A stretch of 43,440 nt of DNA from Escherichia coli (GCF_003334255.1 NZ_QOWU01000048.1), one strand, 5' to 3'; numbered from the stretch's first letter, positions 4,847 to 40,509 are shown. A program made the numbers and translations. Notes: a model not told the origin generated them from the letters alone.

Positions 4847-4869
4847 ATAACTATACTCCCCGCATAGCT

Positions 4870-4956
4870 GAATTGTTGGCTATACGGTTTAAGTGGGCCC
4901 CGGTAATCTTTTCGTACTCGCCAAAGTTGAAGAAGATTATCGGGGTTTTTGCTTTT
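4870..4956 (+). ncRNA. copA: CopA antisense RNA (copy-number control), approximate bounds
   Basis: Lies on the strand opposite the repA leader, between copB and tap. Imperfect long hairpin (CCCCGGTAATCTT...AAGATTATCGGGG) followed by TTTTTGCTTTT at about 4898-4956, as expected for the CopA terminator stem-loop. 5' end not determined. Confidence 0.5.
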
Positions 4957-5070: not shown

Positions 5071-5331
5071 TTACTTTAGTATATCCAGTCTCTGCAGTTC
5101 ATCTTTGATGATTTTCTCAACGAACTGAGCCTGTGTTATCCCCTCTCTCTCGCAGTACTCAACCATGAGATCTTTCAGAGGATTTTTGACAAAAACTTTT
5201 ATCTCTTTGTGTGTAAGACGTTTTCTTGCAACAGCGGCCATTTGTTTCTCAGAGTCAGTCATAGGCTTACCTCTGCGCACAAACCGCTTTTGACTCAATG
5301 AGGAAGTCACTGCATTTTCTGTCTGCGACAT
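5071..5331 (-). CDS. repA2: RepA2/CopB transcriptional repressor of repA, 86 aa
   Basis: [39 protein letters not shown]... matches CopB. ATG at 5331 with a GAGGAGG RBS upstream. Confidence 0.9.
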
Positions 5332-5494: not shown

Positions 5495-5577
5495 TTATGG
5501 AAACGCCGGGAGCGGGGAAAACTTGCTTTTTCCCGTTTCCGGGGTTGGACAACTGAGCAACGCGAAGGCGTCAGCTA
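5495..5577. repeat. Copy 1 of an ~80 bp hairpin-containing repeat (second copy at about 17475-17552)
   Basis: Shared blocks 'GGAAACGCCGGG' and 'CCGGGGTTGGACAAC.GAGCAA.GCGA.GGCGTCAG' flank a copy-specific hairpin. Lies between the DUF2726-like gene and repA2. Confidence 0.5.
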
Positions 5578-6161
5578 CGATGTTCCGGGGACTGCTGATC
5601 AGCCCCTGTTGTATTCAGCCATTCTCCGGTCATCTGCAGCAGTTTTCTGGCATCGTGGCTTCTGAGCAACGGAATACCAGCCTGCCTCAGAACCTCTTCC
5701 AGAAAAATATCCCGGCGTCTGCGTTCCGGTCGTAAATGTCTGGCATCATCCAGCTCTACTGCTGCAACAATACTGAACGAAAGCCGCTCAACGATAACCA
5801 CATCAACATGCCACTGAGACACCATCCTGAATAACTGCCACCACTGGCGTGATCGTGGCCGGATATTCCCGTTCAGCTGGACGATATCCGCGACCCGTAC
5901 CTGCGGACACAGATACCACCGCTTCATATCCACAATTCTGAACAGTCCTTTCATAAAACTGACTTCCCTTTCTGTCAGCAGCGTCTTCTGACGTTGCCAG
6001 TATTCACCGCCGGACAGTATTCGCTCTGCATCACCGGTCCGTATACCTGCCGCATGCAACTGCATCAGCAAAGGAGAATGCTGATTTACACTTCTGAGGA
6101 TAATCCGGATAAGTAACGCTGCAATAATCAGAACAATGAGAATAAAAATAATCAGCTTCAT
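5571..6161 (-). CDS. N-terminally membrane-anchored protein, probably DUF2726-type, 196 aa
   Basis: Hydrophobic N-terminus (MKLIIFILIVLIIAALLIRIIL) followed by a soluble domain. Occupies the position and has the size of the conserved IncF backbone gene next to the hha-like gene. Domain assignment is from memory, not motif-proven. Confidence 0.5.
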   Translation of the reverse strand: MKLIIFILIVLIIAALLIRIILRSVNQHSPLLMQLHAAGIRTGDAERILSGGEYWQRQKTLLTEREVSFMKGLFRIVDMKRWYLCPQVRVADIVQLNGNIRPRSRQWWQLFRMVSQWHVDVVIVERLSFSIVAAVELDDARHLRPERRRRDIFLEEVLRQAGIPLLRSHDARKLLQMTGEWLNTTGADQQSPEHRS

Positions 6162-7015: not shown

Positions 7016-7472
7016 TATAAAATCACGACTTAATACGGAAAAAACTCTGTGCTACTCAGAACTGTCCGGTCATACTTCCCGACCGGATATTAAAAAAAGC
7101 AAATCTCATGCATTATTCAGCCTTCTGAATCCCTGGAGTAATGAAGGCTGCTTTTTCGTTACACCCTTCCCCGGCAGCGCCGGTGGCAGTGTTCAGCCCT
7201 TTTTCGGGCAAACTGCTGCCAGTCTGTCCGGGGAGCAGACTGCGCAGCCCGTAGCCATGCCTCAGCGGCTCCCGGCCAGTCCCCCCTGACTTCCAGCCGG
7301 ACAGCCCGGCGTCCGACCTGCCGGTAGCGCCATACCCCGGAGTTTTGCGAATCACGCCCTGTTCCGTTCATTTTCCTTCCCCCTTTAATCCAGGCCGGTG
7401 AATGTGTTATAAATTTTTATAACCTTCTTCTGCCGGGTATGGAAGAAGGTTTCAGAGAAGCCTTATTTTTCC

Positions 7473-9847: not shown

Positions 9848-12800
9848 TCAGTCTCCGCCCAGGGTTTTCTCTTTCTGCAGGTCACGAACCATATCCCGCT
9901 CCATCTGCTGCAGACGCTCCTGCAGCAGATTTTCCCGGGCAACCTCCCGGACCGCTTCCCGCTCCCGTTGTGATTCACGCAGCACACTCTCCGGCAGTGC
10001 GGTTTCCCGTTCAGATATGGCAGACCGGTCACGCTCCTGTCCGGCAATATCCCTGACAGCCAGCTCTGTTTTGCCGTCCGGCAGGTCAGGTTTGTTCTCT
10101 GCCATTTTCCTGACAATTTCATCTGCGCGGCGTTCCGTTTCACGGCGGATGGCCTCTTCAGCCTGCCGCTGTGCCAGTACCTCTGCCGTGACCGGTTCGC
10201 CATTTCCGGCACCCGGCTGGACGCTGTTGTCCGGGATATCCCCCCACACGCGGCCACCGGTGATGGCACCGGGATTCCACGGGCGACCTTCACCGGCGAT
10301 TCTTACCACCACACCACTGTCAGGATTATCACGGGCAATCCGGACGCCATCCTGCATATTATCAGCCAGCAGGCTCTCTCCGTTACGGCTGCCCTGCAGG
10401 GCCACGAACTGCGCATCCCCGCTGCCTTTCACCCGTCCTTCACCACTGAATCCCCGCAGCCCGTTTCCGTCATCCGTGGTCAGTGGGTTCAGCCAGATAC
10501 CAGCTGACTTGCCGTTACGGTCAAACGCCGGCAGTGCCACATGCGGCTGCGGATATTTACGTCCCGGTGCAATAAACCGTGCAGGGCTGTCTCCCCCGGC
10601 CAGCCCTGCCTGACGGAGAACGGCACGGCCTGCCGCCACGTCCCGCAGTTCCCGTGCCGTACTGAACAGCCGCTGCGCATTCATGACCTCCCGGTCCGGT
10701 TTCGGCTCCAGCACATCGTGGGCAGTTCCTTTCTGTACGGCATTGTTAATGGCATCCGTCCAGCCCTGACGGTTATCGGTGTACACCTGCACATGCTGCT
10801 TCATACGCGACAGGGCCACGTAGGCTGACTCAAAGCCGGCCATCAGTTTCCGGTTACCTTCCGTGCCTTCAAGCGCGATGGCAAAGGTTTCACTCGCCCC
10901 CTGCGCACCGTGGGCGGTGATGGCATAAGCCAGGTCAATATGTTGCTCTGCCCGCTCCTGGCCGGGGCGAATCACCCGGGTCTGCTGTCCGTCTGACAGC
11001 GTGACACTGTCACCGGAAACCGCTGTCACCGTCCAGACGCTGTTGGCCACATAACCGCGCTCCCGGTCACTCTTCGTGAAGCGCATCCGGTCGCCGGTCC
11101 CCACCCGGATTTTGTCCGGGGTGTACAGTGTGACACCTTCAGCCACCGCCTCCCGGGGCGAAATCAGCCGCGTGTTACCTTCCGCATCCTCCAGGGTTAT
11201 CAGCCCGTCATCCTTGCTGATACCGGCAATCCGGTGATACACACTATCCACCAGGGCAAGGGCATCCGGGTTATTCTCCCAGGTGGAGAGACGACGCAGC
11301 TCCCCGTCACGTATATTCGCTGTGTTCAGGACAGGCACCATGACCTGCTCTTTCCCCAGCTCACCGGCCTTTTCCCGTGCATCATGAATCATGCTGTTCA
11401 GTACGCGCCGGTCCTCATTCAGGTGCGTGACAATCAGCGTCTGCTCCCGTGCTTCCGGTGTCCTGCCGGTATAGTCGCGGACAATGGCTTCATACAGTGT
11501 CATGGGGACATCCGGAAAAGTCTCACCTTTCAGCATCGCCTTCTGCTGCGCTTCTGCCAGTTTCGCTTCCTGGCTGTGACTGAACTCCGTCACGGAGTGC
11601 TCCGGTGCCCATGCGCCCTCCTGACGGGGAACCTGAGACGGTTTCACACTCTCAAGCCCGGACAGTGCCCTTTCCACATCCCGGTTAATCAGGCTGTATA
11701 CCGCCTCCCGCAGTTCCGGCGTCTGACGCACAATCTCCTTCATGATGACCACATCGGCAGCACTGCGCGTCTGCTGGAGACGGAAAGGCTGACCGGGCGC
11801 GATGGCCTGCAGCTGGTCCGTGTCACCACTGGCCACGGCACGACCGCCACCGGCCGCAATCAGGGCGTATGCCCGTGCCATGTCGGTATTGCCCACCATT
11901 GAGCTCTCATCGAGCAGGAACAGCGTGTTGCTGAAATCCGGCGTTTCTCCGCTGCGCTGCTGCAGCTGCGTGTCATGCAGAAAGGACGCCAGCGTCTGTG
12001 CATCCACGCCGGCGCTGCGCATCTCACCGACCGCACGGTGCGTGGGCCCCAGCCCCACAACTCGGGGACGCTCACTCGCCGGCAGCATGTTCACGGCTGA
12101 CATCACCGCCCGGAACTGTGTGGTCTTACCCACCCCGGCATACCCCTGCACCACCGTGAAACGGTCGGACGTTTCCAGTATCATGCGGGTGGCGGCACGC
12201 TGTCCTGATGTCAGTTTCTCCATGAGTTCGCCAGGTACTCTCTCCATCAGCGGCGTGACCGCCTCCTTACCTTCGAGAATATGGCGAAGAATACTTTTTT
12301 CTGCCTCATACGACGCACGGGAAACCAGCAGGCCTGTGCCATAGCCTTTTGCCACATCCACATACAGTAAGTCACCGCGTTTTATCTGCGCATTGATTTC
12401 CCCTCCCAGTTCAGTAAAACCGGTTCCTTCTGCAGCAAACGACTTCGCCTCTGTCAGCAGGTCCACCATGCTGAAGGCCAGGTTTTTACTTTCCAGCACA
12501 GGAAGGGCCAGATGAATGGCCTGCTGTGCCGGCGTGTGCAGCCCGGTTTTCTGCAGACTGATAGCGGTTTCCAGCGATGTCTCACCGGCCCGCGCCTTTA
12601 TCTGCTCAGAAACCACCGTAAAGGAGGGATGGCGGGCAAGTTTTTCCGCAGTACGGGTTTCATCCAGTGAGGAATACAGCCGGACATCACGACCGCTGCG
12701 GGCCAGACCGTTCAGGGTGGCGTTGTCCATTGCCATCTGTGTGACGGAGGCAAACACCGTCGCACTGTCACTGACGGAATGCCCGGGCGTTTCCACCCAG

Positions 12801-15118
12801 CCGTTCTCCAGCTTCAGTGCCGTGAACGGTGAATCAGCCACAGGCAGGGTGGCCGGTTCAGCCCGCCCCGGCACAACAACCGTCATCGCATCTTCACTGA
12901 CGGATGCCACCTGCAGGCGGTCACCGCCGGAGACGCGGAGTCTGGGAATTTTCCCTGTCACCCTCAGTCGCTCGCCGTCTGCCACCGGCATTTTTTCCGG
13001 CCGGAACAGCGACCAGCTGCTGTCCAGGGAGGAAATACGCACCACCTGCGTTTCGCCCTGCGCATCCCGCAGGGTCAGGCTGTGACTCTGCGCCGTCACC
13101 CGGTCGATAACATAGCGGTCATGACTGCGTGTCTCCGGGTTCCACTGCTCCATCACCATCCCCGGTCGGTACATATCCCGCAGATAACGGCTCCGGCTGT
13201 CCAGCCAGACCGGTGACAGGGCGGTCATGGTTACTTCCGGGTGTCCGAGCACGCCCTGTGTTTTCAGCTCACTGCGAATGGCCTGGGTCAGAATGGCCTG
13301 TTCCCGTACCCCGCTGACCTGTGCCACGCTCTCTTCTCCGGCTTTCACGCTGGCCGCAAAATCCCCGGCCAGCCGGGCATAGCGGACATTACGGTCCGGT
13401 TCACTGATGATGGTTGCCGGTCGCTGCTCTCCGCCCTGCCAGCGATATATGTTCACCCCGGCATCCTTCATGGCCATCAGCGCACTGCCTGTACCGGTTC
13501 GCTGCCCGCTGTCGGTTATCAGGACCTGTACGTTATGACGTGCGGCACCGTCCAGCAGGGTTAACGTCTCTTTCAGGGAGAGTTTTTCGCCCTGGTCAAC
13601 GATAACAGTACTGCCCGGCGTGAAGGCCATGCCTTCCAGCAGCTGACGACGTCCGGTTATCAGCTCACCGGACAACCGTTCATCCTGCTTCAGGTTCATC
13701 TGCGAGCGACGGTCAGCAGCGATAATCTGCACCTCCCGCCCCTGCTCCCGGGCCATCATGACCAGTTCAGCCACCCGCTCACGCTGCCCGGCTGCACCGC
13801 CCTGCCCGGACACAATGGCCAGCGACGGACGGTCCTGTGCCAGAACACTGACCGCATCGCTGTAACCAGCCGTCCGGGGGACACTTTTCTCCGGATGTAC
13901 GGTCACCCGGTTCTGTTTCATGATGTCACGACTGAGTGCCCGGACTGACAGCTCATCGAGCACATGAATCCCGGACGTGAACAGCCCCTTCTCACGATCG
14001 AGGGGGATAAGCTTCTCACGGCTGATGGCCTCATCGATACCGGCGCGTGCCCGTTCAATCACACCATTTTCCGGCGGCAGTATGCCGACCGTTCTGGCCA
14101 GCACGTCCGTGTACGTAAACTGCACTTTTCGTTCACTTAATCCGGCAATGGCCTGTGTCACCGCCTGCTGCACATCCGGCCCCTCCTGTGAAACAGCCCC
14201 GGGCGCCTGCGTGCGGGTCTCCGCACGCTGATCCGCCGCGTCACGATATGCCCGGATGTCGAACCCGGTTTCCTTCAGCGTCTGCATCCATTCAGCCATT
14301 CTGACTTCAGGATCGACGTGCTGTTTGGATTTTCGCGTATCCAGTGCCGCCACATCCCGGGATTTCAGCGAGGCATCTTCCCCGACGGCCTCCCGGATTG
14401 CCTGTGAGCGTCCGGAAAAGGCCTCCACCGGTACGCCCGGCATCTCCCACATACCGTGCTTACCCACCACTTCGGTTTCATAGCCCAGCGCCTCAACCTG
14501 CTCTTTCAGTTTTTCCCGGTAGAGCCTGCCAAAGGCAATCTGATTAGCGTACACATTCTCAATGAACCCCGTTTTCCCCACTTTGTCACTGCTCAGTGTC
14601 TTCCATTCGCCGTTATGCTGCGTGACATTAGCCACCACCGCATGCGTGTGTAACTGTGGTTCCTGATCGCGACTGGTGTCGTGGTTAAACAGTGCCATCA
14701 CCAGATTACCGGTCAGCACCGTTTCTGACTGTCCGTCCGTCATCACCCGTGTGGAGGCCAGCGCCTCCACCTGACGAACAGCAAAGTCCACGGCCTGGTT
14801 ATGTGCATCAATCAGGCGCTTATCGCCACCTAACATGGCCATCATGGAGACACTTTTGGGGGCGGAGAAGGTCAGGTCGTAGCCGGGACGATGCCTGTTA
14901 CTGCCATCCTGCATGCGGCTTAGATCCGCTCCATCCGGCAGCCTTCCCTCCAGAAGACGGGTAAAAACATCCTTATCGACACTGCCCTGCAGTCCCAGCT
15001 GTTCAGCCCCCCTGCCGGCCCAGCGTTCTCCCATGCTGCCCAGCACATAGTAATTATCCTTGTCGGTATAATAGTTACCGGCACTTCCGGCCGATCTGAC
15101 CTGCGCAATACTCATCAT
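9848..15118 (-). CDS. traI: TraI relaxase/helicase (DNA helicase I), 1756 aa
   Basis: Full-length colinear match to F TraI ([35 protein letters not shown]... through ...KEKTLGGD), including the N-terminal relaxase region and the 'GYAGVGKTT' Walker A of the helicase. Confidence 0.95.
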   Translation of the reverse strand: MMSIAQVRSAGSAGNYYTDKDNYYVLGSMGERWAGRGAEQLGLQGSVDKDVFTRLLEGRLPDGADLSRMQDGSNRHRPGYDLTFSAPKSVSMMAMLGGDKRLIDAHNQAVDFAVRQVEALASTRVMTDGQSETVLTGNLVMALFNHDTSRDQEPQLHTHAVVANVTQHNGEWKTLSSDKVGKTGFIENVYANQIAFGRLYREKLKEQVEALGYETEVVGKHGMWEMPGVPVEAFSGRSQAIREAVGEDASLKSRDVAALDTRKSKQHVDPEVRMAEWMQTLKETGFDIRAYRDAADQRAETRTQAPGAVSQEGPDVQQAVTQAIAGLSERKVQFTYTDVLARTVGILPPENGVIERARAGIDEAISREKLIPLDREKGLFTSGIHVLDELSVRALSRDIMKQNRVTVHPEKSVPRTAGYSDAVSVLAQDRPSLAIVSGQGGAAGQRERVAELVMMAREQGREVQIIAADRRSQMNLKQDERLSGELITGRRQLLEGMAFTPGSTVIVDQGEKLSLKETLTLLDGAARHNVQVLITDSGQRTGTGSALMAMKDAGVNIYRWQGGEQRPATIISEPDRNVRYARLAGDFAASVKAGEESVAQVSGVREQAILTQAIRSELKTQGVLGHPEVTMTALSPVWLDSRSRYLRDMYRPGMVMEQWNPETRSHDRYVIDRVTAQSHSLTLRDAQGETQVVRISSLDSSWSLFRPEKMPVADGERLRVTGKIPRLRVSGGDRLQVASVSEDAMTVVVPGRAEPATLPVADSPFTALKLENGWVETPGHSVSDSATVFASVTQMAMDNATLNGLARSGRDVRLYSSLDETRTAEKLARHPSFTVVSEQIKARAGETSLETAISLQKTGLHTPAQQAIHLALPVLESKNLAFSMVDLLTEAKSFAAEGTGFTELGGEINAQIKRGDLLYVDVAKGYGTGLLVSRASYEAEKSILRHILEGKEAVTPLMERVPGELMEKLTSGQRAATRMILETSDRFTVVQGYAGVGKTTQFRAVMSAVNMLPASERPRVVGLGPTHRAVGEMRSAGVDAQTLASFLHDTQLQQRSGETPDFSNTLFLLDESSMVGNTDMARAYALIAAGGGRAVASGDTDQLQAIAPGQPFRLQQTRSAADVVIMKEIVRQTPELREAVYSLINRDVERALSGLESVKPSQVPRQEGAWAPEHSVTEFSHSQEAKLAEAQQKAMLKGETFPDVPMTLYEAIVRDYTGRTPEAREQTLIVTHLNEDRRVLNSMIHDAREKAGELGKEQVMVPVLNTANIRDGELRRLSTWENNPDALALVDSVYHRIAGISKDDGLITLEDAEGNTRLISPREAVAEGVTLYTPDKIRVGTGDRMRFTKSDRERGYVANSVWTVTAVSGDSVTLSDGQQTRVIRPGQERAEQHIDLAYAITAHGAQGASETFAIALEGTEGNRKLMAGFESAYVALSRMKQHVQVYTDNRQGWTDAINNAVQKGTAHDVLEPKPDREVMNAQRLFSTARELRDVAAGRAVLRQAGLAGGDSPARFIAPGRKYPQPHVALPAFDRNGKSAGIWLNPLTTDDGNGLRGFSGEGRVKGSGDAQFVALQGSRNGESLLADNMQDGVRIARDNPDSGVVVRIAGEGRPWNPGAITGGRVWGDIPDNSVQPGAGNGEPVTAEVLAQRQAEEAIRRETERRADEIVRKMAENKPDLPDGKTELAVRDIAGQERDRSAISERETALPESVLRESQREREAVREVARENLLQERLQQMERDMVRDLQKEKTLGGD

Positions 15119-17334
15119 CAGAAATCATCTCCCGGCTCAACATCCTCCCCGCGCTCCCGGTGCACATTAATGTTCACCTCTTCACGACGCTGCATCTGCT
15201 GCTGGATGTCCGGATGATTTTCCTGTTGCCATGCCTCATAAGCGGCCATATCCACCACTTCACCGGATTCACTGATCCCGGGTGGCAGTTGCTGTTCCAT
15301 CTCTTCTTCCGGTTTCATTTTCAGCTCCTGCTCGATCCCCCCTGCCGGAACATTCACACCTGAATCTGACTTCTTATCGTTGATGGCAGGAGACACCGGC
15401 TGTTGCGGCTGTTGCGGCTGTTGCGGCTGTTGCGGCTGTTGCGGCTGTTGCGGCTGTTGCGGCTGTTGCGGCTGTTCAGCCTGAGTCACGTCTTCTCCGG
15501 AAACAACCTCCGGGACATCCGGTTCGAAGAGGCTGGCCATCTGACGACCTTCTGCTTCCCTTGCGGCAAGTACGGCACTCAGACGGTTCTCCATTTCCGG
15601 GTTGATGTCACGCGGAATAAACTCCGGAGCGACCTTCGGTCGTGTCTGATATTTCAGAGAGAGTTTTACTGCCGGATACGGTCCGGGCAGGGTGACATAA
15701 CAGGTCAGATCCGGCAGAGACTGAATGTCGGAATAACTGACCAGCGTCTGGCGCTCCATATCCTTACCGGTCGATACCCCGTCACGTACCGGATCAGCAC
15801 CGTAGGAATACTGCTCGCTGGCTTTCAGGTGCTCTTTCTCACCAATCTCACCGGCAGCGAACTCTGCAATCTTATGGCTGGGAGAACGGAAAAAGGCACG
15901 GGTGTTCATGACGTCAAACAGCGTGGCAGCCGCTTTCTCACCGTAGATATCTTCCAGCTGGGCATAGGACTGGATACCAAACACATAACAGCCACCGAAC
16001 TTACGGGCTTCCGGCAGGATCTCCACCAGGTCCGGCAGTTTGTGTAACGTGGGTAGCTCATCACAAAAAAACCACACACGACGGTTACGGTTTTCTCCCA
16101 TTGCCAGCAGACCACGAATGGCAATGGACAGCCACATGGAGATCACCGGCTTCAGGGAGGCATGGGTGTCGGCATTCGACGAGATAAACAGCCAGCCGTT
16201 TTTCTGATCTTCCCGGACACCACGCATCCAGTCACGGATGGTAAAAGACTCACCGTTATGCTCAATCCCCTGCAGGTAACGGATGGCTTTCACGTAGTTG
16301 GTCAGCACAGCACGGATGGAAATCGCCGTTTTCTCAATTTTCTCTTCCACCAGGTTGGCCGCCGGTGAATTACGCAGGAAGGTACGCAGTTTTTCGATTT
16401 TGATGGAAAGCAGTGTGTCCACCAGTTTGCTGTAGCTGCGGTTGGGGTCATTACGCATCAGGTACGCCGCTTCCGCAAAAATGGTACGTCCTGAACCCTG
16501 CCAGAACGGGTCCTCTTTTGTGCCCATCGGGATCAGCGTGTTCGCGGTATTATCAAAATCCGGCTGTGTCAGGCACTCCTTCCACAAATCCCAGGCGGCA
16601 CAGCGGGCATCCAGCGGATTCAGGATTTTATCGATGGAGGGATCATAGTAACTTTTAACAAATTCCCCTGAACGGTCATAAATCACCACCATATCTCCAC
16701 GCTGACGGGCGTAGTTGGCCAGACGACGGATAACTTCCGACTTACCGGCCCCGACCGTGCCGTGCAGACAGAAGTTCTGGATTTCGGAATCCCGGATAAT
16801 CGGCAGGTCGCCAATCCGGATATCGGAGTCCTTGCCGTCTTTTTTCAGCATCCGGGCAACGTCTTTCGGATTGTCTGTCAGCTGACGACCACCTGTGACT
16901 TCATTTTCGCTCTGTTGTTTACCCTGACGCCCCAGAATCCAGGAGACAACAAAGAAGGTGATCAGGCAAATAACCAGTGCCACAACTGTGGCCAGAACGA
17001 ATGCGGACCATAGCTGCTCTCCGCACCAGATCATATATTTATCATGCAGTACCTGAGCAGCGTTCATCCGGAAGGTTTTGCCGTAATACTGGATCTCATA
17101 GACCGGCTGGGACTTGATTAAATCCCGCATGCCTTCCAGCGTGGTACACCACCAGTAAATACAGCCGTTCACAAACGTCTGCCAGCTTATTTTTACCCAT
17201 AAAACCAGACCAACGAGTATCCAGAAAAAAATAAACAGGCAGTAAAGCATGATATTGGCGATCTGGCTGAACATGCGGATACGCATGGACGCAATCTGAC
17301 CGCCCTGGGTCATATCCTTTGCGTTAAAACTCAT
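15118..17334 (-). CDS. traD: TraD type IV coupling protein, 738 aa, with expanded C-terminal QQP repeat
   Basis: [24 protein letters not shown]... matches F TraD. Walker A 'GTVGAGKSE'. C-terminal (QQP)n tract is longer than I remember for F (717 aa). Confidence 0.95.
15401..15472. repeat. Eight perfect tandem copies of a 9-nt unit (TGTTGCGGC) encoding the TraD QQP repeats
   Basis: Directly visible as (ctgttgcgg)x8 in the sequence. In-frame within traD on the minus strand. Confidence 0.9.
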
Positions 17335-17474
17335 GATGATATTCCGAAGAAAAAAAGTCAGTCGGACTGATTATTAATGATGAAAAGATTAATAACCGTT
17401 AAATTCCGGCTTCGCCGGCAACACTTCACGGTCGCACAAAGAATTTGCACAACCGCTCAGTGTTTTCATATTTA

Positions 17475-17580
17475 TTTCGGAAACGCCGGGGAGAAATAAA
17501 ATTTATTTTATTTCTTTCCGGGGTTGGACAACGAGCAAAGCGAGGCGTCAGTCAGGAGGCCGGTCAGACCAGCCTCCGGA
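17475..17580 (-). terminator. Hairpins downstream of traT, including copy 2 of the ~80 bp repeat
   Basis: GGAGGC-N11-GCCTCC hairpin (about 17556-17578) directly after the traT stop, then an AT-rich hairpin CCGGGGAGAAATAAAAT..ATTTTATTTCTTTCCGGGG with flanks shared with the 5495-5577 element. No clean U-tract, so terminator function is inferred. Confidence 0.4.
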
Positions 17581-17586
17581 AGATAA

Positions 17587-18318
17587 TCAGAGAATATTTG
17601 CGATTGATTTGGCCAGCTGGTCTTCGAGAACAGGCTTCGCCTCTTCAAATTTCAGGTTAACCTTGTTCGCATTTGAGACCACACGGGTCTGGTATTTATG
17701 CTGGTTACCTGTTTCAGTACTGGTCTGAATTTTCGCACCTGATGTGCCCTGACGCAGGGCGGCAACATTATCCGTTGTCACCGTTGCCTTAGTACGCTCT
17801 GCAATCTGCACATCCGTGATCATGGTATAGTTCACATCTTCCACCATCGCATCTGCAGCCATACCCACCAGACCGGCAGCAAGGCCCACACCGAGTGTGG
17901 CACCGGCAGAACTGGAATTATATCCGGTGATACCGGCACCTAACGCTGCACCAACTGCTGCGCCTTCATAACCACGGTTCAGCCATCCCTGAGACTCCCG
18001 CAGATCCATCTTATCGGCCTTCAGCACATTCGCCTGAATCCAGTAGTAGGCTTTATCCGGAGAAGTCACCACCTGATATCCTTTTGCTTTCACAGCATCA
18101 GCAATTTTGCCCTGCAGCCCACTCATGTCTTTATCAGACGTGTTTTTGATCTGCAGAAATACCGTGCGTTCGCTGGCGGGTTCAAGCCAGATGGTCTCAC
18201 TCATCTGAGTCTTCACCTCAAGGTTACGCTTCTTGATTGCTGTGCTCATCGCACCACACCCTGAAAGGGCCAGAGTGGAACTGACCAGTGCAACCATCAT
18301 CAATTTTTTTGTTTTCAT
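17587..18318 (-). CDS. traT: TraT surface-exclusion outer-membrane lipoprotein, 243 aa
   Basis: [47 protein letters not shown]... lipobox LSGC. Matches F TraT. Confidence 0.9.
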
Positions 18319-18841: not shown

Positions 18842-21663
18842 AATGGCCCCTTCAATCGTTCTTTCTTATCATCCACCATCTGTTTTAACGCATCTTCAGA
18901 CGGTGTTGGCATTAATTTCTGTCGTTTATTTTCTTCATTATATCTGTTGTTTTGTTGAATTTCTTCCTGTTTGTGATTATTTTTTAACTCTGAATATTGT
19001 CTGTCTACAATATTTTCTTCGCCATGAATACTATTCTGAGTATCTCCGATATTCCCTTTATATTCTGTGACCATATTATCAACCTGATGTTTTACATCAT
19101 TACGGATATTACTGTCCTGCGTTCTTTGATCAATAATGGCCTGATGCCCCTGATGGTCAGCAATAATATCCTGGCTGCCACCACCCGAAGGTACGCTCTC
19201 CATTCCTTTACCAATATCCCCACGGGATTCACGCCAGGCATTATCAACACCAGGCTGCACCTGTTCCTGAACAAAAGACCATGCCATCGCCCGACGGCGT
19301 TCTGCAATCTCCGGTGAACTGGTGTTTGTCAGAATAGCTTCGGCATCCTGCGGTGCGTGTTTCATCACATACTGTGCAAACTGTTGCGACAAATCTTCGC
19401 TCATCTGCCCACTCATGCTTTCAGTACGGGATGCCATTTCAGCATATTCATGGCTGCGGGTCATATTCGTCGTGTACTGGTCGTAACTCTGTTTCGCTGA
19501 GTTCAGGGCTGCAGACAACTGGTCCACGCGGGAATCGGCATTATTGTCAGTATGGCTGCCGGATTCACTGACTTTGCGACTGGTAAAGTAATCGCTGGCC
19601 TCTTTAAAGTCCTTACTGGCTTTAGCATCGATATCATGGCGAGCATCATGGGTAGCCCTGCTGCCACTACTTGCTGAATGTGAGTCATCATCCGTTGCAT
19701 CCAGGCTCCCCTTAAATCCACCTCTGATGCCTACCCCACCACCAACACCAAGAATTTTAGGTTTAACCCCCCATTCAGCATGAGCATCAGCATACATTCC
19801 ACCAGATAGCCTGGTACTTGTTGATGCCAGTTCCTGAGTCGCCTGCTCATTACTGATATTATGCGCCTTCGCATAGCTTTCCACTGCACTGCGCATACGG
19901 CTGGCCATCATGGAGTCCTGAGCACTCATCGTGCTGTCAGCACCACCGGTGACAGAATCACTGCTCCCCCGGTTAGAACCAAACTGACTGAGCGTGTTCC
20001 AGGCACTGGCAATACTGCTGCTGAACCCATGCAGGGCACTTTCTGCTCTGTTCGATGCTTCCCGGGCCATTTCCTGTTGTGCCGCCGCAATCTGACGCGT
20101 TGCATTGATACCGACCGGTAAACGGGACATCGCCCCGCTCGCATCCATCACCATATTACCGTCACGGGTCTGTGTGGCGGTTGCGCCACTGCCGGTCTGG
20201 TACATCATCTGACCAAACGACGTGGTGCTGTTGGTGCTCCAGCTGAAGCCGTTAACGTTCTCCGTCTGCATGTTGCCGTAGGAGTAATTACCGTCAACCA
20301 CACTGCCTGCTGCACTGGCGGTCGGGCTGATAGCAGAGGAAGCGAAATGGCTGTACACACTGGAAAATCCTGCCCCGAGCCCCCTGACCATCATCCAGGA
20401 TAATGGCGGGATCATCATGGAAAGATACCCGGCAGTGGAAGCCAGATCGGAGTATTTCAGCTGTATCTGTGAAATTTCCGAGAGCACCACCGGTGCACCA
20501 TTCTGCTTTGCATAAAATGTCATGGCGCTGTTCAGAATGGCGTACAACATTGGCCATGACTGCAACCACATCAGGGCAAACACATAGCCTTTCAGGACGG
20601 ACAGCGTCAGTTTGTTGAAGACAGCCGCCAGTACCAGGAGCGGGAAAATACCGATGGCGATCCCCGTCAGGATGGTCTGCGTCATGGGCAGTGTCCGCAT
20701 CGCCACATGACCGATGGAGACATGTGCCAGACGTTGCTTCTCCATCGATGATGTGGTGGCCAGATTCACCAGGCTGGCCGAATCACCATTACGTGCGGCA
20801 TAACTGGTGATCCCCTCCTTCAGCGCATTGATGGTGACATTCTGGCGGATGATCTGGCTGGCTGATTTACTTGAGCCATAGAAGTAACTGTAACTGTCGC
20901 CAATCAGCGTACTGAACAACAGGTTCGGATCAGGGCGTCCACCAAATAGCTGCTGGGCATAATAATGCCATGTTTTTCCGCCACTCTGTGTGTCCAGATT
21001 CAGCTTGTCTTTCAGCGAAACCGACGCGTCCTTACAGGTCACGAAATTATTATTGCTGTCATAAACGCCCCGCAGCGGACTGGGGCGGGAAAAAATCAGC
21101 GTGTAAGGATCAGCGGAGGCCATCAGTTCCTCCAGCGTGTATTTGTGGTTCAGGTAAATATCCCCCATCACGCAGTTCTGCACATAATCCTGGAAAAGAT
21201 TGGCGATTTCCGGATTACGGGACAAAAAGTCGGTGCTTTTTGATACCAGTTCTGCGCCAAACAGCATCCCCGTTTTGCTGTAGGTGACACTGTCCGGTTG
21301 CGTGAAGATCATCTCGTAACTGGCCACCATTGCATGCCCGATACGGGTCGTCAGTGAAAGTGGCATCGCCAGTCCGACCGGCACATTATCCACCCGGTGA
21401 ACTTTGACCAGGTCACTGTTATCAATAATCTGCACCGATGTGCGGACATTAACCAGCAGGCTGATAAGCACAAACACGGCCACCCAGCCCAGCAAATCCA
21501 TCACGTTGTGCCGCTGTACCCACATTACGGCCACCGCGAGAACAGACAATGTGAGCGCAATTTTTTCAATGGAATCCCACGTCCGGGTCCCCATAAAAGC
21601 GGCAATGGCATTCAGGTTATTCCGCAACCACTCACCACCGGCAATCACATAAACTTCATTCAC
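18838..21663 (-). CDS. traG: TraG mating-pair stabilisation/pilus assembly/entry exclusion protein, 941 aa
   Basis: Size, N-terminal polytopic region and large periplasmic C-terminal domain match F TraG (938 aa). Syntenic with traH and traS. Confidence 0.9.
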   Translation of the reverse strand: MNEVYVIAGGEWLRNNLNAIAAFMGTRTWDSIEKIALTLSVLAVAVMWVQRHNVMDLLGWVAVFVLISLLVNVRTSVQIIDNSDLVKVHRVDNVPVGLAMPLSLTTRIGHAMVASYEMIFTQPDSVTYSKTGMLFGAELVSKSTDFLSRNPEIANLFQDYVQNCVMGDIYLNHKYTLEELMASADPYTLIFSRPSPLRGVYDSNNNFVTCKDASVSLKDKLNLDTQSGGKTWHYYAQQLFGGRPDPNLLFSTLIGDSYSYFYGSSKSASQIIRQNVTINALKEGITSYAARNGDSASLVNLATTSSMEKQRLAHVSIGHVAMRTLPMTQTILTGIAIGIFPLLVLAAVFNKLTLSVLKGYVFALMWLQSWPMLYAILNSAMTFYAKQNGAPVVLSEISQIQLKYSDLASTAGYLSMMIPPLSWMMVRGLGAGFSSVYSHFASSAISPTASAAGSVVDGNYSYGNMQTENVNGFSWSTNSTTSFGQMMYQTGSGATATQTRDGNMVMDASGAMSRLPVGINATRQIAAAQQEMAREASNRAESALHGFSSSIASAWNTLSQFGSNRGSSDSVTGGADSTMSAQDSMMASRMRSAVESYAKAHNISNEQATQELASTSTRLSGGMYADAHAEWGVKPKILGVGGGVGIRGGFKGSLDATDDDSHSASSGSRATHDARHDIDAKASKDFKEASDYFTSRKVSESGSHTDNNADSRVDQLSAALNSAKQSYDQYTTNMTRSHEYAEMASRTESMSGQMSEDLSQQFAQYVMKHAPQDAEAILTNTSSPEIAERRRAMAWSFVQEQVQPGVDNAWRESRGDIGKGMESVPSGGGSQDIIADHQGHQAIIDQRTQDSNIRNDVKHQVDNMVTEYKGNIGDTQNSIHGEENIVDRQYSELKNNHKQEEIQQNNRYNEENKRQKLMPTPSEDALKQMVDDKKERLKGPL

Positions 21664-39632: not shown

Positions 39633-40319
39633 TTACTTAACGCTATAAAATTCACGAATTATATTTAATAGCGAATCTATTTCCCCTTTATAGATACATG
39701 ACACTCTGAATAAATCAAAGTGTTCAAAAAATTCTTTTATTTTCCGTTTAACTGGTTTAATTCGATCCTCAGATGCTCTGTCTGTAATACCCAATTCTCT
39801 GGCAATTGTTGCATGACCAACACCCAGCATATAAAAAGAGAAAACAAGCAATGTCCCGGGGGAAAGATCATTCCATATCGTTAATTTGTCAGAAGTATTT
39901 GTATTACTTCCACTCTGATTTAACGCAAAAAATGGATAATCAGGAAACGGATTAATTTGCCATAAAACAACAGATTCGTCATTATAAAAAGAAACATTCT
40001 CCATCCTTATCTGATAGATTTCGCCATGAAAATTAAAACGACGACAAAATGCAGAGCCATGTCCAAGAGCCTGGCATTCCAGTTCAAGTGATGAAAGAAA
40101 AATTTCAACCTGCAGACGTATATAACTCTCTCCGGATAAGGGTTTATCTTCTCTGGAAAAGAGTTCAATAAAAGCCCCATTGGCATAAAGGATTTTCCGG
40201 TTTTTGTTACGGACACAAACCGGAACGGGAGAATTTCTGTAGATATTCTGAACGTTAAGGATGTATTTATTTACAGATTGACTGTTAAGTGGCCTTTCTC
40301 TACGATCCAGCGCACACAT
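39633..40319 (-). CDS. traJ: TraJ transcriptional activator of the tra operon, about 228 aa
   Basis: Start trimmed to the ATG at 40319 ([14 protein letters not shown]...), which has a GGAGG RBS at 5-nt spacing. C-terminal helix-turn-helix-like segment '[20 protein letters not shown]'. ORF-track start at 40379 runs into the finP/leader region. Confidence 0.8.
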
Positions 40320-40395
40320 AGGAACCTCCGTTAAGGATTCTATGGACAGTCGATGCAGGGAGGTCTGAACTCCCTGCATCGGCGATTTTCAGTTT
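40320..40395 (+). ncRNA. finP: FinP antisense RNA (approximate), complementary to the traJ leader
   Basis: Plus-strand perfect hairpin CGATGCAGGGAG-gtctgaa-CTCCCTGCATCG at about 40350-40381, followed by GCGATTTTC. Overlies the traJ RBS region on the opposite strand. Ends not mapped. Confidence 0.45.
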
Positions 40396-40509
40396 CAATT
40401 TTTAACGTGGCATTAACCACGTAATTAATATACTAATTATCTGACGTATTGTCATCTTTTTGAATCATAAAAATTCTTATATTTGAACCAACTCAAACTT
40501 CATTTTCAT

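What the first reader, a model, noticed from the sequence alone, without database searches (positions are those of the whole stretch)
5495..5577. An ~80 bp hairpin element duplicated at two distant backbone junctions (5495-5577 and about 17475-17552)
Two loci share 'GGAAACGCCGGG' and 'CCGGGGTTGGACAAC.GAGCAA.GCGA.GGCGTCAG' blocks flanking different internal hairpins. One lies between the DUF2726-like gene and repA2; the other lies between traT and traD. Each is directly downstream of a minus-strand gene, so they may be related terminators, small-RNA genes, or recombination or miniature-element scars.
Basis: seen in the sequence. Interest (0 to 1): 0.4.

Follow-up and report, generated by a model that had tools for sequence, protein, structure and literature searches.

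The report
Strand-specific two-hairpin element of F-like plasmids
The two loci are real copies of a conserved ~75-base folded element found in thousands of F-type plasmids; its helix is kept only on the strand that is transferred during conjugation, it is absent from the RNA-family library and the papers searched, and its function is not established.

Summary
Confirmed. Window 5500-5574 and 17480-17551 are two copies of one ~75-nt module. It reads GAAAC, then a 19-20 bp hairpin whose sequence differs between copies but whose pairing is kept, then TTGGACAA, a short second hairpin, and CGTCAG.

Each copy type occurs in at least 5000 plasmid records. Diverged relatives sit upstream of parA and at other backbone junctions. 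Fourteen of 19 stem pairs show compensatory change. There is no Rfam family, no phage match and no literature hit for the sequence.

Wobble pairs (39 against 4) show that a continuous helix is preserved only on the window + strand. That strand is antisense to the tra and rep genes and has the polarity of the transferred strand in every backbone checked. No conserved promoter precedes the element. Neither strand looks like a canonical intrinsic terminator.

- Best reading (about 0.35, inferred): a single-stranded-DNA signal on the transferred strand, such as a priming or primosome-assembly site.
- Rival (0.25): an RNA element on the antisense strand.
- Rival (0.2): a leaky sense-strand terminator or insulator.
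- Rival (0.07): an inert scar or miniature mobile element.

The structure is shown; the function is not.

The parts
5500..5574 (+). Copy A, whole module (GAAAC, hairpin 1, TTGGACAA, hairpin 2, CGTCAG)
   Evidence: The covariance model scores it 94.3 bits. The same 75 bases are 100% identical in L013, where both flanks are unrelated or only 75% identical.
5502..5546 (+). Copy A, hairpin 1: 19 pairs plus one G.G mismatch, three G.U pairs, loop CUUGC
   Evidence: Fold (-38.5 kcal/mol on +, -23.6 on -). Covariation.
5545..5552 (+). Copy A, TTGGACAA: the most conserved motif of the wider family (first two bases close hairpin 1)
   Evidence: Alignment. Motif scan.
5548..5574 (+). Copy A, tail: weak hairpin 2 closed by GAC/GTC, then AG. 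TCA at 5571-5573 is the stop codon of the DUF2726 gene on the other strand
17480..17551 (+). Copy B, whole module
   Evidence: Covariance model 78.9 bits. Identical in plasmid F (L002 39584-39660, minus strand).
17482..17525 (+). Copy B, hairpin 1: 19 pairs plus G.G, two G.U pairs, loop UUUA. The upper stem is unrelated in sequence to copy A
   Evidence: -28.7 kcal/mol on +, -18.4 on -..
17524..17531 (+). Copy B, TTGGACAA motif
17527..17551 (+). Copy B, tail: hairpin 2 (GAC...GTC) and AG
5587..5615 (+). Possible accessory part of copy A: hairpin GGGGACTGCTGATCAGCCCC followed by TGTTGTATT on the + strand, inside the DUF2726 coding sequence. Membership uncertain
   Evidence: Folds. L005 retains it up to the T-run although the rest of the gene is gone. 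Not called by the terminator scan.
17555..17577 (.). Context only: separate hairpin GGAGGCCGGTCAGACCAGCCTCC between the traT stop and copy B, with no U-tract on either strand

Best explanation
The element is a folded signal that works in single-stranded form on the window + strand. That strand is antisense to the tra and rep genes and has the polarity of the strand that enters the recipient during conjugation.

The most likely form is single-stranded DNA. When the transferred strand is naked in the recipient, the long hairpin and the short second hairpin would stay folded among SSB-coated DNA. They would then present the conserved unpaired stretches (GAAAC, TTGGACAA, CGTCAG) to a host protein. 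My specific proposal is a single-strand initiation site, probably of the PriA/primosome-assembly kind. It would prime complementary-strand synthesis running leftwards into repA2-repA (copy A) or traD-traI (copy B).

Shown: the module, its structure, its strand specificity, its orientation and its distribution. Inferred: that the active form is DNA rather than RNA, and that it primes synthesis.
For: 1. The hairpin is real. 95.7% of cells are paired, 14 of 19 pairs change on both sides, 0 of 500 shuffles reach this, and slid controls give 43-64%.
2. It is strand-specific. 18 of 19 variants fold better on + and the other is a perfect palindrome. Wobble cells number 39 on + against 4 on -. Diverged relatives show the same bias.
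3. Orientation is constant. The element lies opposite to the tra coding strand in every locus that carries TraI, TraD, TraT or FinO, in plasmid F, and in all three pSLT copies, including the one upstream of parA where a neighbouring gene lies on the element's own strand. Leading-region genes are read from the transferred strand (PMC11541004). In F they lie on the same strand as the tra genes, so the complement of the tra mRNA is the transferred strand.
4. There is no conserved promoter at the left edge and no consensus promoter or terminator at either copy. The module edges are sharp in unrelated contexts.
5. It was found only in plasmids: no match in 50,697 phage records.
6. In pMT1 of Yersinia pestis, typed non-mobilizable with no tra genes annotated, the parA-type copy has lost 3 nt from one arm and the motif reads GGATAA. 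This is a single case.
7. A small plasmid (L040) has two relatives in opposite orientation on either side of repA. Known priming signals can be arranged this way (my recollection of RSF1010 and ColE1).
Against: - No assay or published map links this sequence to priming.
- Three of the four known classes of priming signal fail on sequence. Frpo type: there is no room for -35 and -10 boxes in a 20-bp stem, and no such hexamers. G4 type: CTG is not conserved. DnaA-box hairpin: no DnaA box.
- Orientation on the transferred strand is confounded with being antisense to the local genes, because nearly all backbone genes point one way.
- The two L040 copies cannot both lie on one transferred strand.
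- G.U tolerance is more typical of RNA. With DNA energy parameters the advantage of the + strand shrinks to about 3-4 kcal/mol.
- The element hugs stop codons and precedes rep, par and traD genes, which reads more like a transcriptional device. In pBIC1a, sense RNA falls from RPKM 282 (traT) to 8 across this intergenic region (PMC6286996).
- F itself has only one copy.
Confidence: 0.35

Rival explanations
1. An RNA element on the + strand. It would be either a small antisense RNA starting near GAAAC, or a structured part of longer antisense transcripts. The conserved unpaired TTGGACAA and tail would act as a protein-binding or base-pairing surface. Because the tails of the two copies are 92% identical, an RNA from either copy could pair with the sense mRNAs at both loci.
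For: - G.U wobble on + with covariation is the classic mark of a transcribed RNA strand.
- Other + strand antisense RNAs are known in this tra region: Rfam AS-traI, AS-traG, AS-pc02, CopA and FinP.
- Weak promoter-like hexamers sit at the right distance in some contexts: TTTGCA-17-CATATT before copy B, TGGATA-16-AATATT in L009, TTAATG-17-TAGTAT before copy A.
- Some contexts have + strand terminator-like sequences just after the module. L004-type loci have a GC hairpin followed by TTATTTTTT. Copy A has 5587-5615, which L005 retains. Type-2 tails have GACGCC...GGCGTC followed by a U-rich run.
- In pMT1 and at the parA-type sites the element is in sense orientation to the neighbouring relE, resolvase or rpn genes, so it could be transcribed there.
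Against: - Only 3 of 19 contexts have an 8/12 promoter match, and five have no -10-like hexamer at all. The tool scans find none.
- In PLD contexts the left flank is the ribosome-binding site and start codon of the PLD gene.
- No U-tract follows copy B or many other copies.
- There is no Rfam family even at E<=10.
- In Salmonella carrying pSLT, which has three copies, FinP and RepX made up over 99% of the sRNA reads enriched with FinO (PMC8136791). Word searches of that paper's tables found traT only as CDS rows, with no traT UTR entry and no traD entry. Some stored files were truncated.
Confidence: 0.25
2. A sense-strand (window minus strand) RNA device: a leaky, non-canonical terminator, insulator or 3'-end stabiliser. 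It would end or attenuate transcripts of the upstream unit (traS-traT, or the end of the tra operon). It would also shield the regulated rep, par and traD units downstream from read-through.
For: - Position. The element abuts or overlaps stop codons of upstream genes and precedes repA2, traD, PLD and the I-complex type rep leader in L040, in sense orientation. At the parA-type sites it precedes parA, but no sense-strand gene lies upstream of it.
- GUUUC(U/C) always follows the hairpin on the sense strand.
- In pBIC1a, RPKM falls from 282 (traT) to 8 and 7 for the next two genes (PMC6286996).
- From memory, not checked here: Jalajakumari et al. 1987 (J Mol Biol 198:1) reported terminator activity distal to traT in F.
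Against: - On this strand the frequent wobble positions become A.C mismatches, so only about 7 base pairs at the foot are continuous. Evolution does not protect this strand's helix.
- No consensus terminator is called at the element. The d-type score is below 0 for every context on this strand (my own implementation).
- Several upstream genes have their own hairpin between the stop codon and the element. In L009 it is a canonical one with a UUUGUCU tail.
- PLD starts 25-39 nt after the element, with no room for a promoter, so efficient termination would silence it.
- The parA-type copy has no sense-strand gene upstream.
Confidence: 0.2
3. A selfish or inert sequence: a miniature mobile element, or a recombination scar or hot spot at module junctions, with no function for the plasmid. 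Under this model the palindrome would be maintained by templated (quasi-palindrome) correction rather than by selection.
For: - The edges are sharp and identical in unrelated flanks. The L013 copy is 100% identical to copy A over exactly 5500-5574, with flanks unrelated or 75% identical.
- It occurs in many contexts, often next to transposase, resolvase, integrase or Rpn genes.
- IS26 cuts one copy.
- A related traT-traD spacer lacks it (L023).
Against: - No terminal inverted repeats or target duplications are visible, and no conserved target sequence.
- The two copies in one plasmid differ throughout the upper stem. The same two or three positions are kept across genera. This means old, stably inherited copies rather than recent insertions.
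- The unpaired motifs are nearly invariant, which templated correction of a palindrome does not explain.
- The 39:4 strand bias needs strand-specific constraint.
Confidence: 0.07

Closest known systems
Single-strand initiation (ssi) signals and primosome assembly sites of plasmids and ssDNA phages (phiX174-type n' sites; G4-type such as the R1/R100 G site; Frpo/ssiD of F; the DnaA-box hairpin 'A site')
   Same: Both are strand-specific hairpin structures of tens of bases that act only in single-stranded DNA. They lie in plasmid backbones and in some cases on the transferred strand (background in PMC7690428 and PMC11541004). In both, structure is kept more than sequence and short unpaired motifs are conserved.
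   Different: There is no sequence similarity to anything I could test. The element is far shorter than Frpo (about 328 nt with -35 and -10 boxes). The CTG start triplet of G4-type sites is not conserved, and there is no DnaA box. It lies in the late-entering tra and rep part of the plasmid, not in the leading region. No activity data exist.
Rho-independent terminators and intercistronic stem-loops that stabilise mRNA 3' ends (REP-like role)
   Same: It is a GC-footed hairpin placed directly after stop codons between transcription units. A short UUUC run follows on the sense strand. Sense RNA drops across the traT-traD spacer in a related plasmid.
   Different: The helix is conserved on the antisense strand, not the sense strand. 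It fails consensus and score tests on both strands. It also carries about 30 nt of conserved non-hairpin sequence, which a terminator does not need.
Plasmid antisense control RNAs (CopA RF00042, FinP RF00107)
   Same: They are 70-90 nt, have one or two stem-loops, are antisense to plasmid genes, show G.U wobble and covariation, and occur in the same plasmids and on the same strand.
   Different: There is no conserved promoter or U-tail terminator. The element is not opposite a ribosome-binding site or leader, except loosely in PLD contexts. The Rfam models do not match it. It is not among the major FinO ligands reported.
Integron attC sites
   Same: The sequence is variable but the hairpin is conserved. 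One strand only is used as folded single-stranded DNA. The 3' foot reads GTTGGAC, which fits the R' consensus GTTRRRY, and the 5' foot ends in AAC.
   Different: Only AAC/GTT pair. The remaining four bases of the would-be R'' box (CAGA, CGGA or AAGA) do not complement GGAC. No integrase or cassette array lies nearby. The copies sit at fixed backbone positions.

Membership tests
ssi, Frpo type (single-stranded DNA promoter) | Long hairpin (about 300 nt) whose stem carries -35 and -10 hexamers recognised by RNA polymerase | tested here: not met
   The stem is 19-20 bp, too short to hold two hexamers plus a 17-bp spacer. No TTGACA or TATAAT-like pair was found.
ssi, G4 type (primase alone; e.g. 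the R1 G site) | Hairpins with a conserved 5'-CTG-3' primer start site beside them on the template strand (from established knowledge) | tested here: not met
   On the + strand, CTG occurs only in type-1 tails (ACTGAGC). It is absent from copy B and from type-2 tails.
ssi, DnaA-box hairpin ('ABC primosome' A site) | A DnaA box (TTATCCACA-like) within the hairpin stem | tested here: not met
   No such sequence occurs in any variant. A TTWTNCACA scan of L040 found one site, and it is elsewhere.
ssi, phiX174 type (PriA primosome assembly site) | PriA-dependent priming and ATPase stimulation by the folded single strand; no reliable sequence consensus | not testable with these tools
   Needs the M13 origin-deletion assay or PriA binding. 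The hexamer AAGCGG that I recall from n' sites occurs exactly in only one variant (L025).
ssi of a conjugative plasmid (any type) | The structure-forming strand is the transferred strand | tested here: met
   The element is opposite to the tra coding strand in all loci with tra genes, in F and in pSLT 3 of 3. This is confounded with gene orientation. The L040 pair is in opposite orientations.
Intrinsic (Rho-independent) terminator | GC-rich hairpin followed at once by a U-tract on the transcribed strand | tested here: not met
   The tool scans call nothing at either copy. The d-type score is below 0 on both strands in 9 contexts (my own implementation). The sense-strand tail is only GUUUC(U/C).
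Intrinsic (Rho-independent) terminator | Transcripts of the upstream gene end there | tested here: inconclusive
   RPKM is 282 for traT, then 8 and 7 for the next two genes in pBIC1a. A second hairpin lies between traT and the element, and no 3' ends are mapped.
Small-RNA gene (CopA/FinP-like antisense RNA) | Own promoter at a fixed distance and a terminator; a discrete transcript | tested here: not met
   3 of 19 contexts have an 8/12 promoter match against 4% background. There is no general terminator. No Rfam match. The transcript itself could not be tested.
Structured nucleic-acid element (general) | Base pairs maintained by compensatory change | tested here: met
   14 of 19 pairs change on both sides, 95.7% of cells are paired, and 0 of 500 shuffles reach this. 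The alignment was fitted by the model, but independent per-sequence folds agree.
Integron attC site | R'' (RYYYAAC) and R' (GTTRRRY) boxes complementary over 7 bases; an integrase and cassettes nearby | tested here: not met
   R' fits (GTTGGAC), but the 5' side reads CAGAAAC, CGGAAAC or AAGAAAC, so only 3 bases pair. The flanking genes are tra, rep and PLD genes.
Miniature transposable element (MITE, REP or PATE-like) | Terminal inverted repeats or a fixed target site, target duplications, and near-identical dispersed copies | tested here: not met
   No duplications and no fixed target were seen; at most ACGCC/GGCGT at the two ends. Copies within one plasmid differ throughout the upper stem. 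One case of an identical copy in foreign flanks exists (L013).

The most novel reading that the evidence does not exclude
F-like and related enterobacterial plasmids carry a previously unrecognised class of short signals on the transferred single strand: a long hairpin, TTGGACAA, then a short hairpin. These sit just 'upstream' of the replication (repA2-repA), partition (parA) and coupling/relaxase (traD-traI) genes. In the recipient they would recruit host priming machinery. Complementary-strand synthesis would then start there and convert these establishment genes and their promoters to duplex form first. That would set the order in which a newly arrived plasmid comes to life.
Probability: 0.15. 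Interest if true: 0.75.

Novelty: new variant of a known kind. Interest (0 to 1): 0.5.

Why it matters
F-like plasmids are the main carriers of resistance and virulence genes in Enterobacteriaceae and are the textbook model of conjugation. How the tra-proximal part of the incoming single strand is primed is still unsettled; Frpo in the leading region is the only well-studied signal (PMC7690428).

A conserved, strand-specific, unannotated element sits at fixed backbone junctions in thousands of these plasmids. It could be a missing priming or establishment signal, a new antisense RNA, or an unusual directional insulator protecting copy-number control. Each reading is directly testable with simple constructs.

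The covariance model built here also gives a marker for the strand polarity and module boundaries of F-type backbones.

Tried and rejected
- **Rfam.** Searches at gathering and at E<=10 around both copies, the pSLT parA copy and the L040 rep region found nothing at the element. The weak PK-repBA hit to the reverse strand of L040 copy 1 (20 bits, E 0.15) is only a generic stem-loop.
- **Literature.** A full-text search for the motif in both orientations, as DNA and as RNA, found nothing relevant. The IesR-1 paper concerns a different pSLT region. The traT/traD/sRNA and ssi searches gave background only. The pHK01 sRNA paper and the Frost 1994 review are not held.
- **FinO ligand.** Not supported. 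FinP and RepX made up over 99% of the sRNA reads enriched with FinO. Word searches of the supplementary tables were uninformative.
- **Promoter inside the element.** The conserved TTGTCC on the sense strand and TTGGAC on the + strand have no -10 partner at 16-18 nt (read).
- **Long-range pairing of ACGCC with GGCGT at the two ends.** Rejected. L009 and L026 change the 5' side so as to perfect hairpin 1 instead.
- **A common hairpin-2 register for all types.** Not found. The tail pairs differ between types, so hairpin 2 was left out of the model.
- **Origin between the two L040 copies.** No iterons or DnaA box were found, so this stays open.
- **Empty site.** The L023 traT-traD spacer lacks the element but is too diverged to define a clean insertion point.
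- **Resolvase res site or Tn3 inverted repeat.** Only loose resemblances were noted by eye next to some diverged copies. The canonical copies are not next to recombinases.
- **Phage-plasmids.** No match.

Full report
**1. The observation**

Both loci are present as described. Aligned, they share GGAAACGCCGGG exactly and a 39-nt block at 92% identity, on either side of hairpins of unrelated sequence. A local blastn-short search gives E = 3e-5 for the 39-mer, finds the 12-mer in register, and shows no third copy in the window.

The module limits are 5500-5574 (A) and 17480-17551 (B). These limits are fixed by loci where the flanks change abruptly. L013 carries a copy 100% identical to A over exactly 5500-5574, while its flanks are unrelated or 75% identical.

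Copy A overlaps the TGA stop of the DUF2726 ORF (5571-6161, minus strand) and lies 168 nt upstream of repA2/copB (5071-5331). Copy B lies 35 nt after traT (17587-18318) and 145 nt before traD (15118-17334).

**2. Distribution**

The hits are from Escherichia, Klebsiella, Salmonella, Shigella, Enterobacter, Citrobacter and Yersinia, and most of the plasmids are typed conjugative.

The 'two to three places per record' in those outputs partly reflects the palindrome matching itself on the other strand. F itself has only copy B.

A degenerate pattern recovered 23 loci from species-representative genomes. They include Pantoea, Erwinia, Izhakiella, Buttiauxella, Kluyvera, Kosakonia, Entomohabitans and Klebsiella, plus plasmid contamination in unrelated assemblies. 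These give 19 distinct variants.

The contexts differ:
- traT to traD.
- finO, DUF2726 or other end-of-tra genes to repA2.
- An immunity, DsbA-like or FinO gene to a phospholipase-D-family nuclease whose start codon lies only 25-39 nt away.
- Next to hok/srnB.
- traT to a DUF2726 gene.

No phage record matches.

**3. Anatomy and structure**

On the + strand the module reads 5'-GAAAC, then hairpin 1, then TTGGACAA, then a weak hairpin 2 closed by GAC/GTC, then AG. Hairpin 1 has 19-20 pairs with its foot at AAC.CCGG/CCGG.GTT. Its upper stem and loop are free to vary.

I built a covariance model from 22 copies and realigned the hits:
- 95.7% of cells are paired.
- 14 of 19 pairs carry changes on both sides.
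- 0 of 500 shuffles reach any of the five measures.
- Sliding the partners drops pairing to 43-64%.

This alignment is fitted to the model. However, independent folding of each variant gives the same helix. The unpaired motifs are nearly invariant.

**4. A wider family**

The model also finds diverged relatives with the same plan: a long hairpin ending in GGGTT or GGATT, then GGACAA, a short GC hairpin, and CGTCAG.
- One type lies 141-170 nt upstream of parA, in the divergent spacer towards an rpn or resolvase gene. It occurs in pSLT, Klebsiella plasmids and pMT1, in 1907 plasmid records.
- Another type lies beside the end of Tn3-family transposase genes and downstream of repA in small plasmids, in 286 records.
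- pSLT therefore has three copies: finO to repA2, traT to traD, and upstream of parA.
- A 26-kb plasmid with a VirB-type transfer system and an I-complex type rep leader (Rfam PK-repBA) has two copies in opposite orientation on either side of repA.

**5. Which strand**

This is the most informative result. In 18 of 19 variants the hairpin is much more stable on the window + strand, for example -38.5 against -23.6 and -28.7 against -18.4 kcal/mol. The nineteenth is a perfect palindrome.

Across 24 distinct full-length copies, 39 cells are G.U or U.G on the + strand. Only 4 are A.C or C.A, the state that would be wobble on the other strand, and two of those four lie in a copy with a deletion. 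At one position G.U is the commonest state.

A continuous 19-20 bp helix is thus conserved only on the + strand. On the sense strand the same positions form internal loops. With DNA parameters the + strand still folds better, but by only 3-4 kcal/mol.

**6. What that strand is**

All flanking tra and rep genes are on the window minus strand, so the + strand is antisense to them. In F, the leading-region genes (ssb, psiB) and the tra genes lie on one strand. Leading genes are read from the transferred strand (PMC11541004). The complement of the tra mRNA is therefore the transferred strand, which in this window is the + strand.

The element has this polarity in every locus that also holds TraI, TraD, TraT or FinO, in F, and in all three pSLT copies. 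That includes the parA copy, whose neighbour rpn lies on the element's own strand.

By my reading of R1 replication (unidirectional, away from repA; from memory), the + strand here is the leading-strand template. On that reading, vegetative replication would not preferentially expose it.

**7. Tests of the ordinary explanations**

- *Terminator.* The consensus scan calls nothing at either copy. A d'Aubenton-Carafa-type score, in my own implementation, is negative on both strands in nine contexts. Several upstream genes have their own hairpin before the element.
  - Against dismissing this model: sense RNA in the related pBIC1a drops from RPKM 282 (traT) to 8 and 7 downstream. GUUUC(U/C) always follows the hairpin on the sense strand.
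- *Small-RNA gene.* Only 3 of 19 left flanks have an 8/12 sigma-70 match at a suitable distance, against 4% background. There is no general U-tail and no Rfam hit. FinP and RepX account for over 99% of the sRNA reads enriched with FinO in a strain carrying pSLT.
  - Hints in favour: a canonical + strand terminator follows the module in L004-type loci, and the 5587-5615 hairpin is retained in L005.
- *Scar or MITE.* There are no inverted ends or target duplications, and the positions are old and stable, yet one identical copy sits in foreign flanks.
- *attC.* The 3' foot fits GTTRRRY, but the 5' box does not complement it.

**8. Interpretation**

The structure and its strand are shown. The function is inferred. 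Several points favour a single-stranded-DNA signal on the transferred strand:
- + strand constraint.
- Transferred-strand polarity without exception in F-type backbones.
- Lack of promoter and terminator.
- Restriction to plasmids.
- A degraded copy in pMT1, typed non-mobilizable with no tra genes annotated (a single case).

The most concrete version is a priming or primosome-assembly site. Three of the four known ssi classes fail on sequence. The PriA class has no testable consensus.

I put this at about 0.35. An RNA on the + strand is at 0.25, a leaky sense-strand terminator or insulator at 0.2, an inert element at 0.07, and the rest is unassigned.

The main unresolved conflict is that position suggests a transcriptional device on the sense strand, while evolution protects the helix on the other strand (note).

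**9. Novelty and score**

The element is not in Rfam 15 and did not turn up in the papers I could search. Older sequence papers on traT probably saw the inverted repeat, but that is from memory.

It is best filed as a new variant of a known kind, namely strand-specific hairpin signals of plasmids. Interest is 0.5: a well-supported, very widespread, unannotated element in the best-studied plasmid family, with an open and directly testable mechanism.

Noticed in passing
window 17434-17450: Near-palindrome GCACAAAGAATTTGCAC lies about 30 nt to the left of copy B, upstream of traD. It is a perfect palindrome (GCACAAAGAATTTGTGC) in the diverged L023 spacer, which lacks the element. It looks like a protein-binding operator.
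   Followed up: no
window 5587-5615: A + strand hairpin GGGGACTGCTGATCAGCCCC followed by TGTTGTATT lies inside the 3' end of the DUF2726 coding sequence. L005 retains it up to the T-run although the rest of the gene is deleted.
   Followed up: partly
L004:476-520 (also L012, L019, L020, L033): A canonical + strand terminator (ATCAGGTGGCGGACGCCTGAT then TATTTTTT) lies about 15 nt after the element. It overlaps the stop codon of a DsbA-like gene on the other strand, which itself gets no U-tract.
   Followed up: partly
window 4864-4954, 7079-7262, 12193-12269, 20859-20944, 40313-40422: Rfam families on the same + strand: CopA, AS-pc02, AS-traI, AS-traG and FinP, with the traJ 5' UTR opposite FinP. 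This region is rich in antisense RNAs.
   Followed up: no
L013, L015, L016, L018, L026, L027, L031, L032: Enterobacterial F-like plasmid contigs occur in assemblies labelled Streptomyces, Lachnospiraceae, Nanosynbacter, Collinsella, Microbacterium and Acinetobacter idrijaensis. This is almost certainly contamination or mis-binning.
   Followed up: no
L010:1-433 (plasmid pU17): IS26 has truncated copy B just after the CCGG of the 3' arm. The stored locus shows N where the IS lies.
   Followed up: no
L040:17981-18061 (-) and 19530-19601 (+): A 26-kb VirB-type Salmonella plasmid has an I-complex rep leader (Rfam PK-repBA at 19155-19277). It carries two family members in opposite orientation on either side of repA. 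No iterons or DnaA box were found between them.
   Followed up: partly
L042:21018-21096 (pMT1 71018-71096): The parA-type copy in Yersinia pestis pMT1 starts 2 nt after the relE stop codon, on the same strand. It has a 3-nt deletion in one arm and reads GGATAA instead of GGACAA. pMT1 also keeps a block of F-like leading-region genes.
   Followed up: partly
window 15118-17334 (traD): TraD carries eight consecutive QQP units (QQPQQPQQP...) near its C-terminus (translation).
   Followed up: no
L016:12105-12900 compared with window 17347-17402: KPC-type Klebsiella plasmids have an insertion of about 0.8 kb encoding a 267-aa protein of no known family between copy B and traD. In pBIC1a this gene is expressed as weakly as traD.
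   Followed up: no
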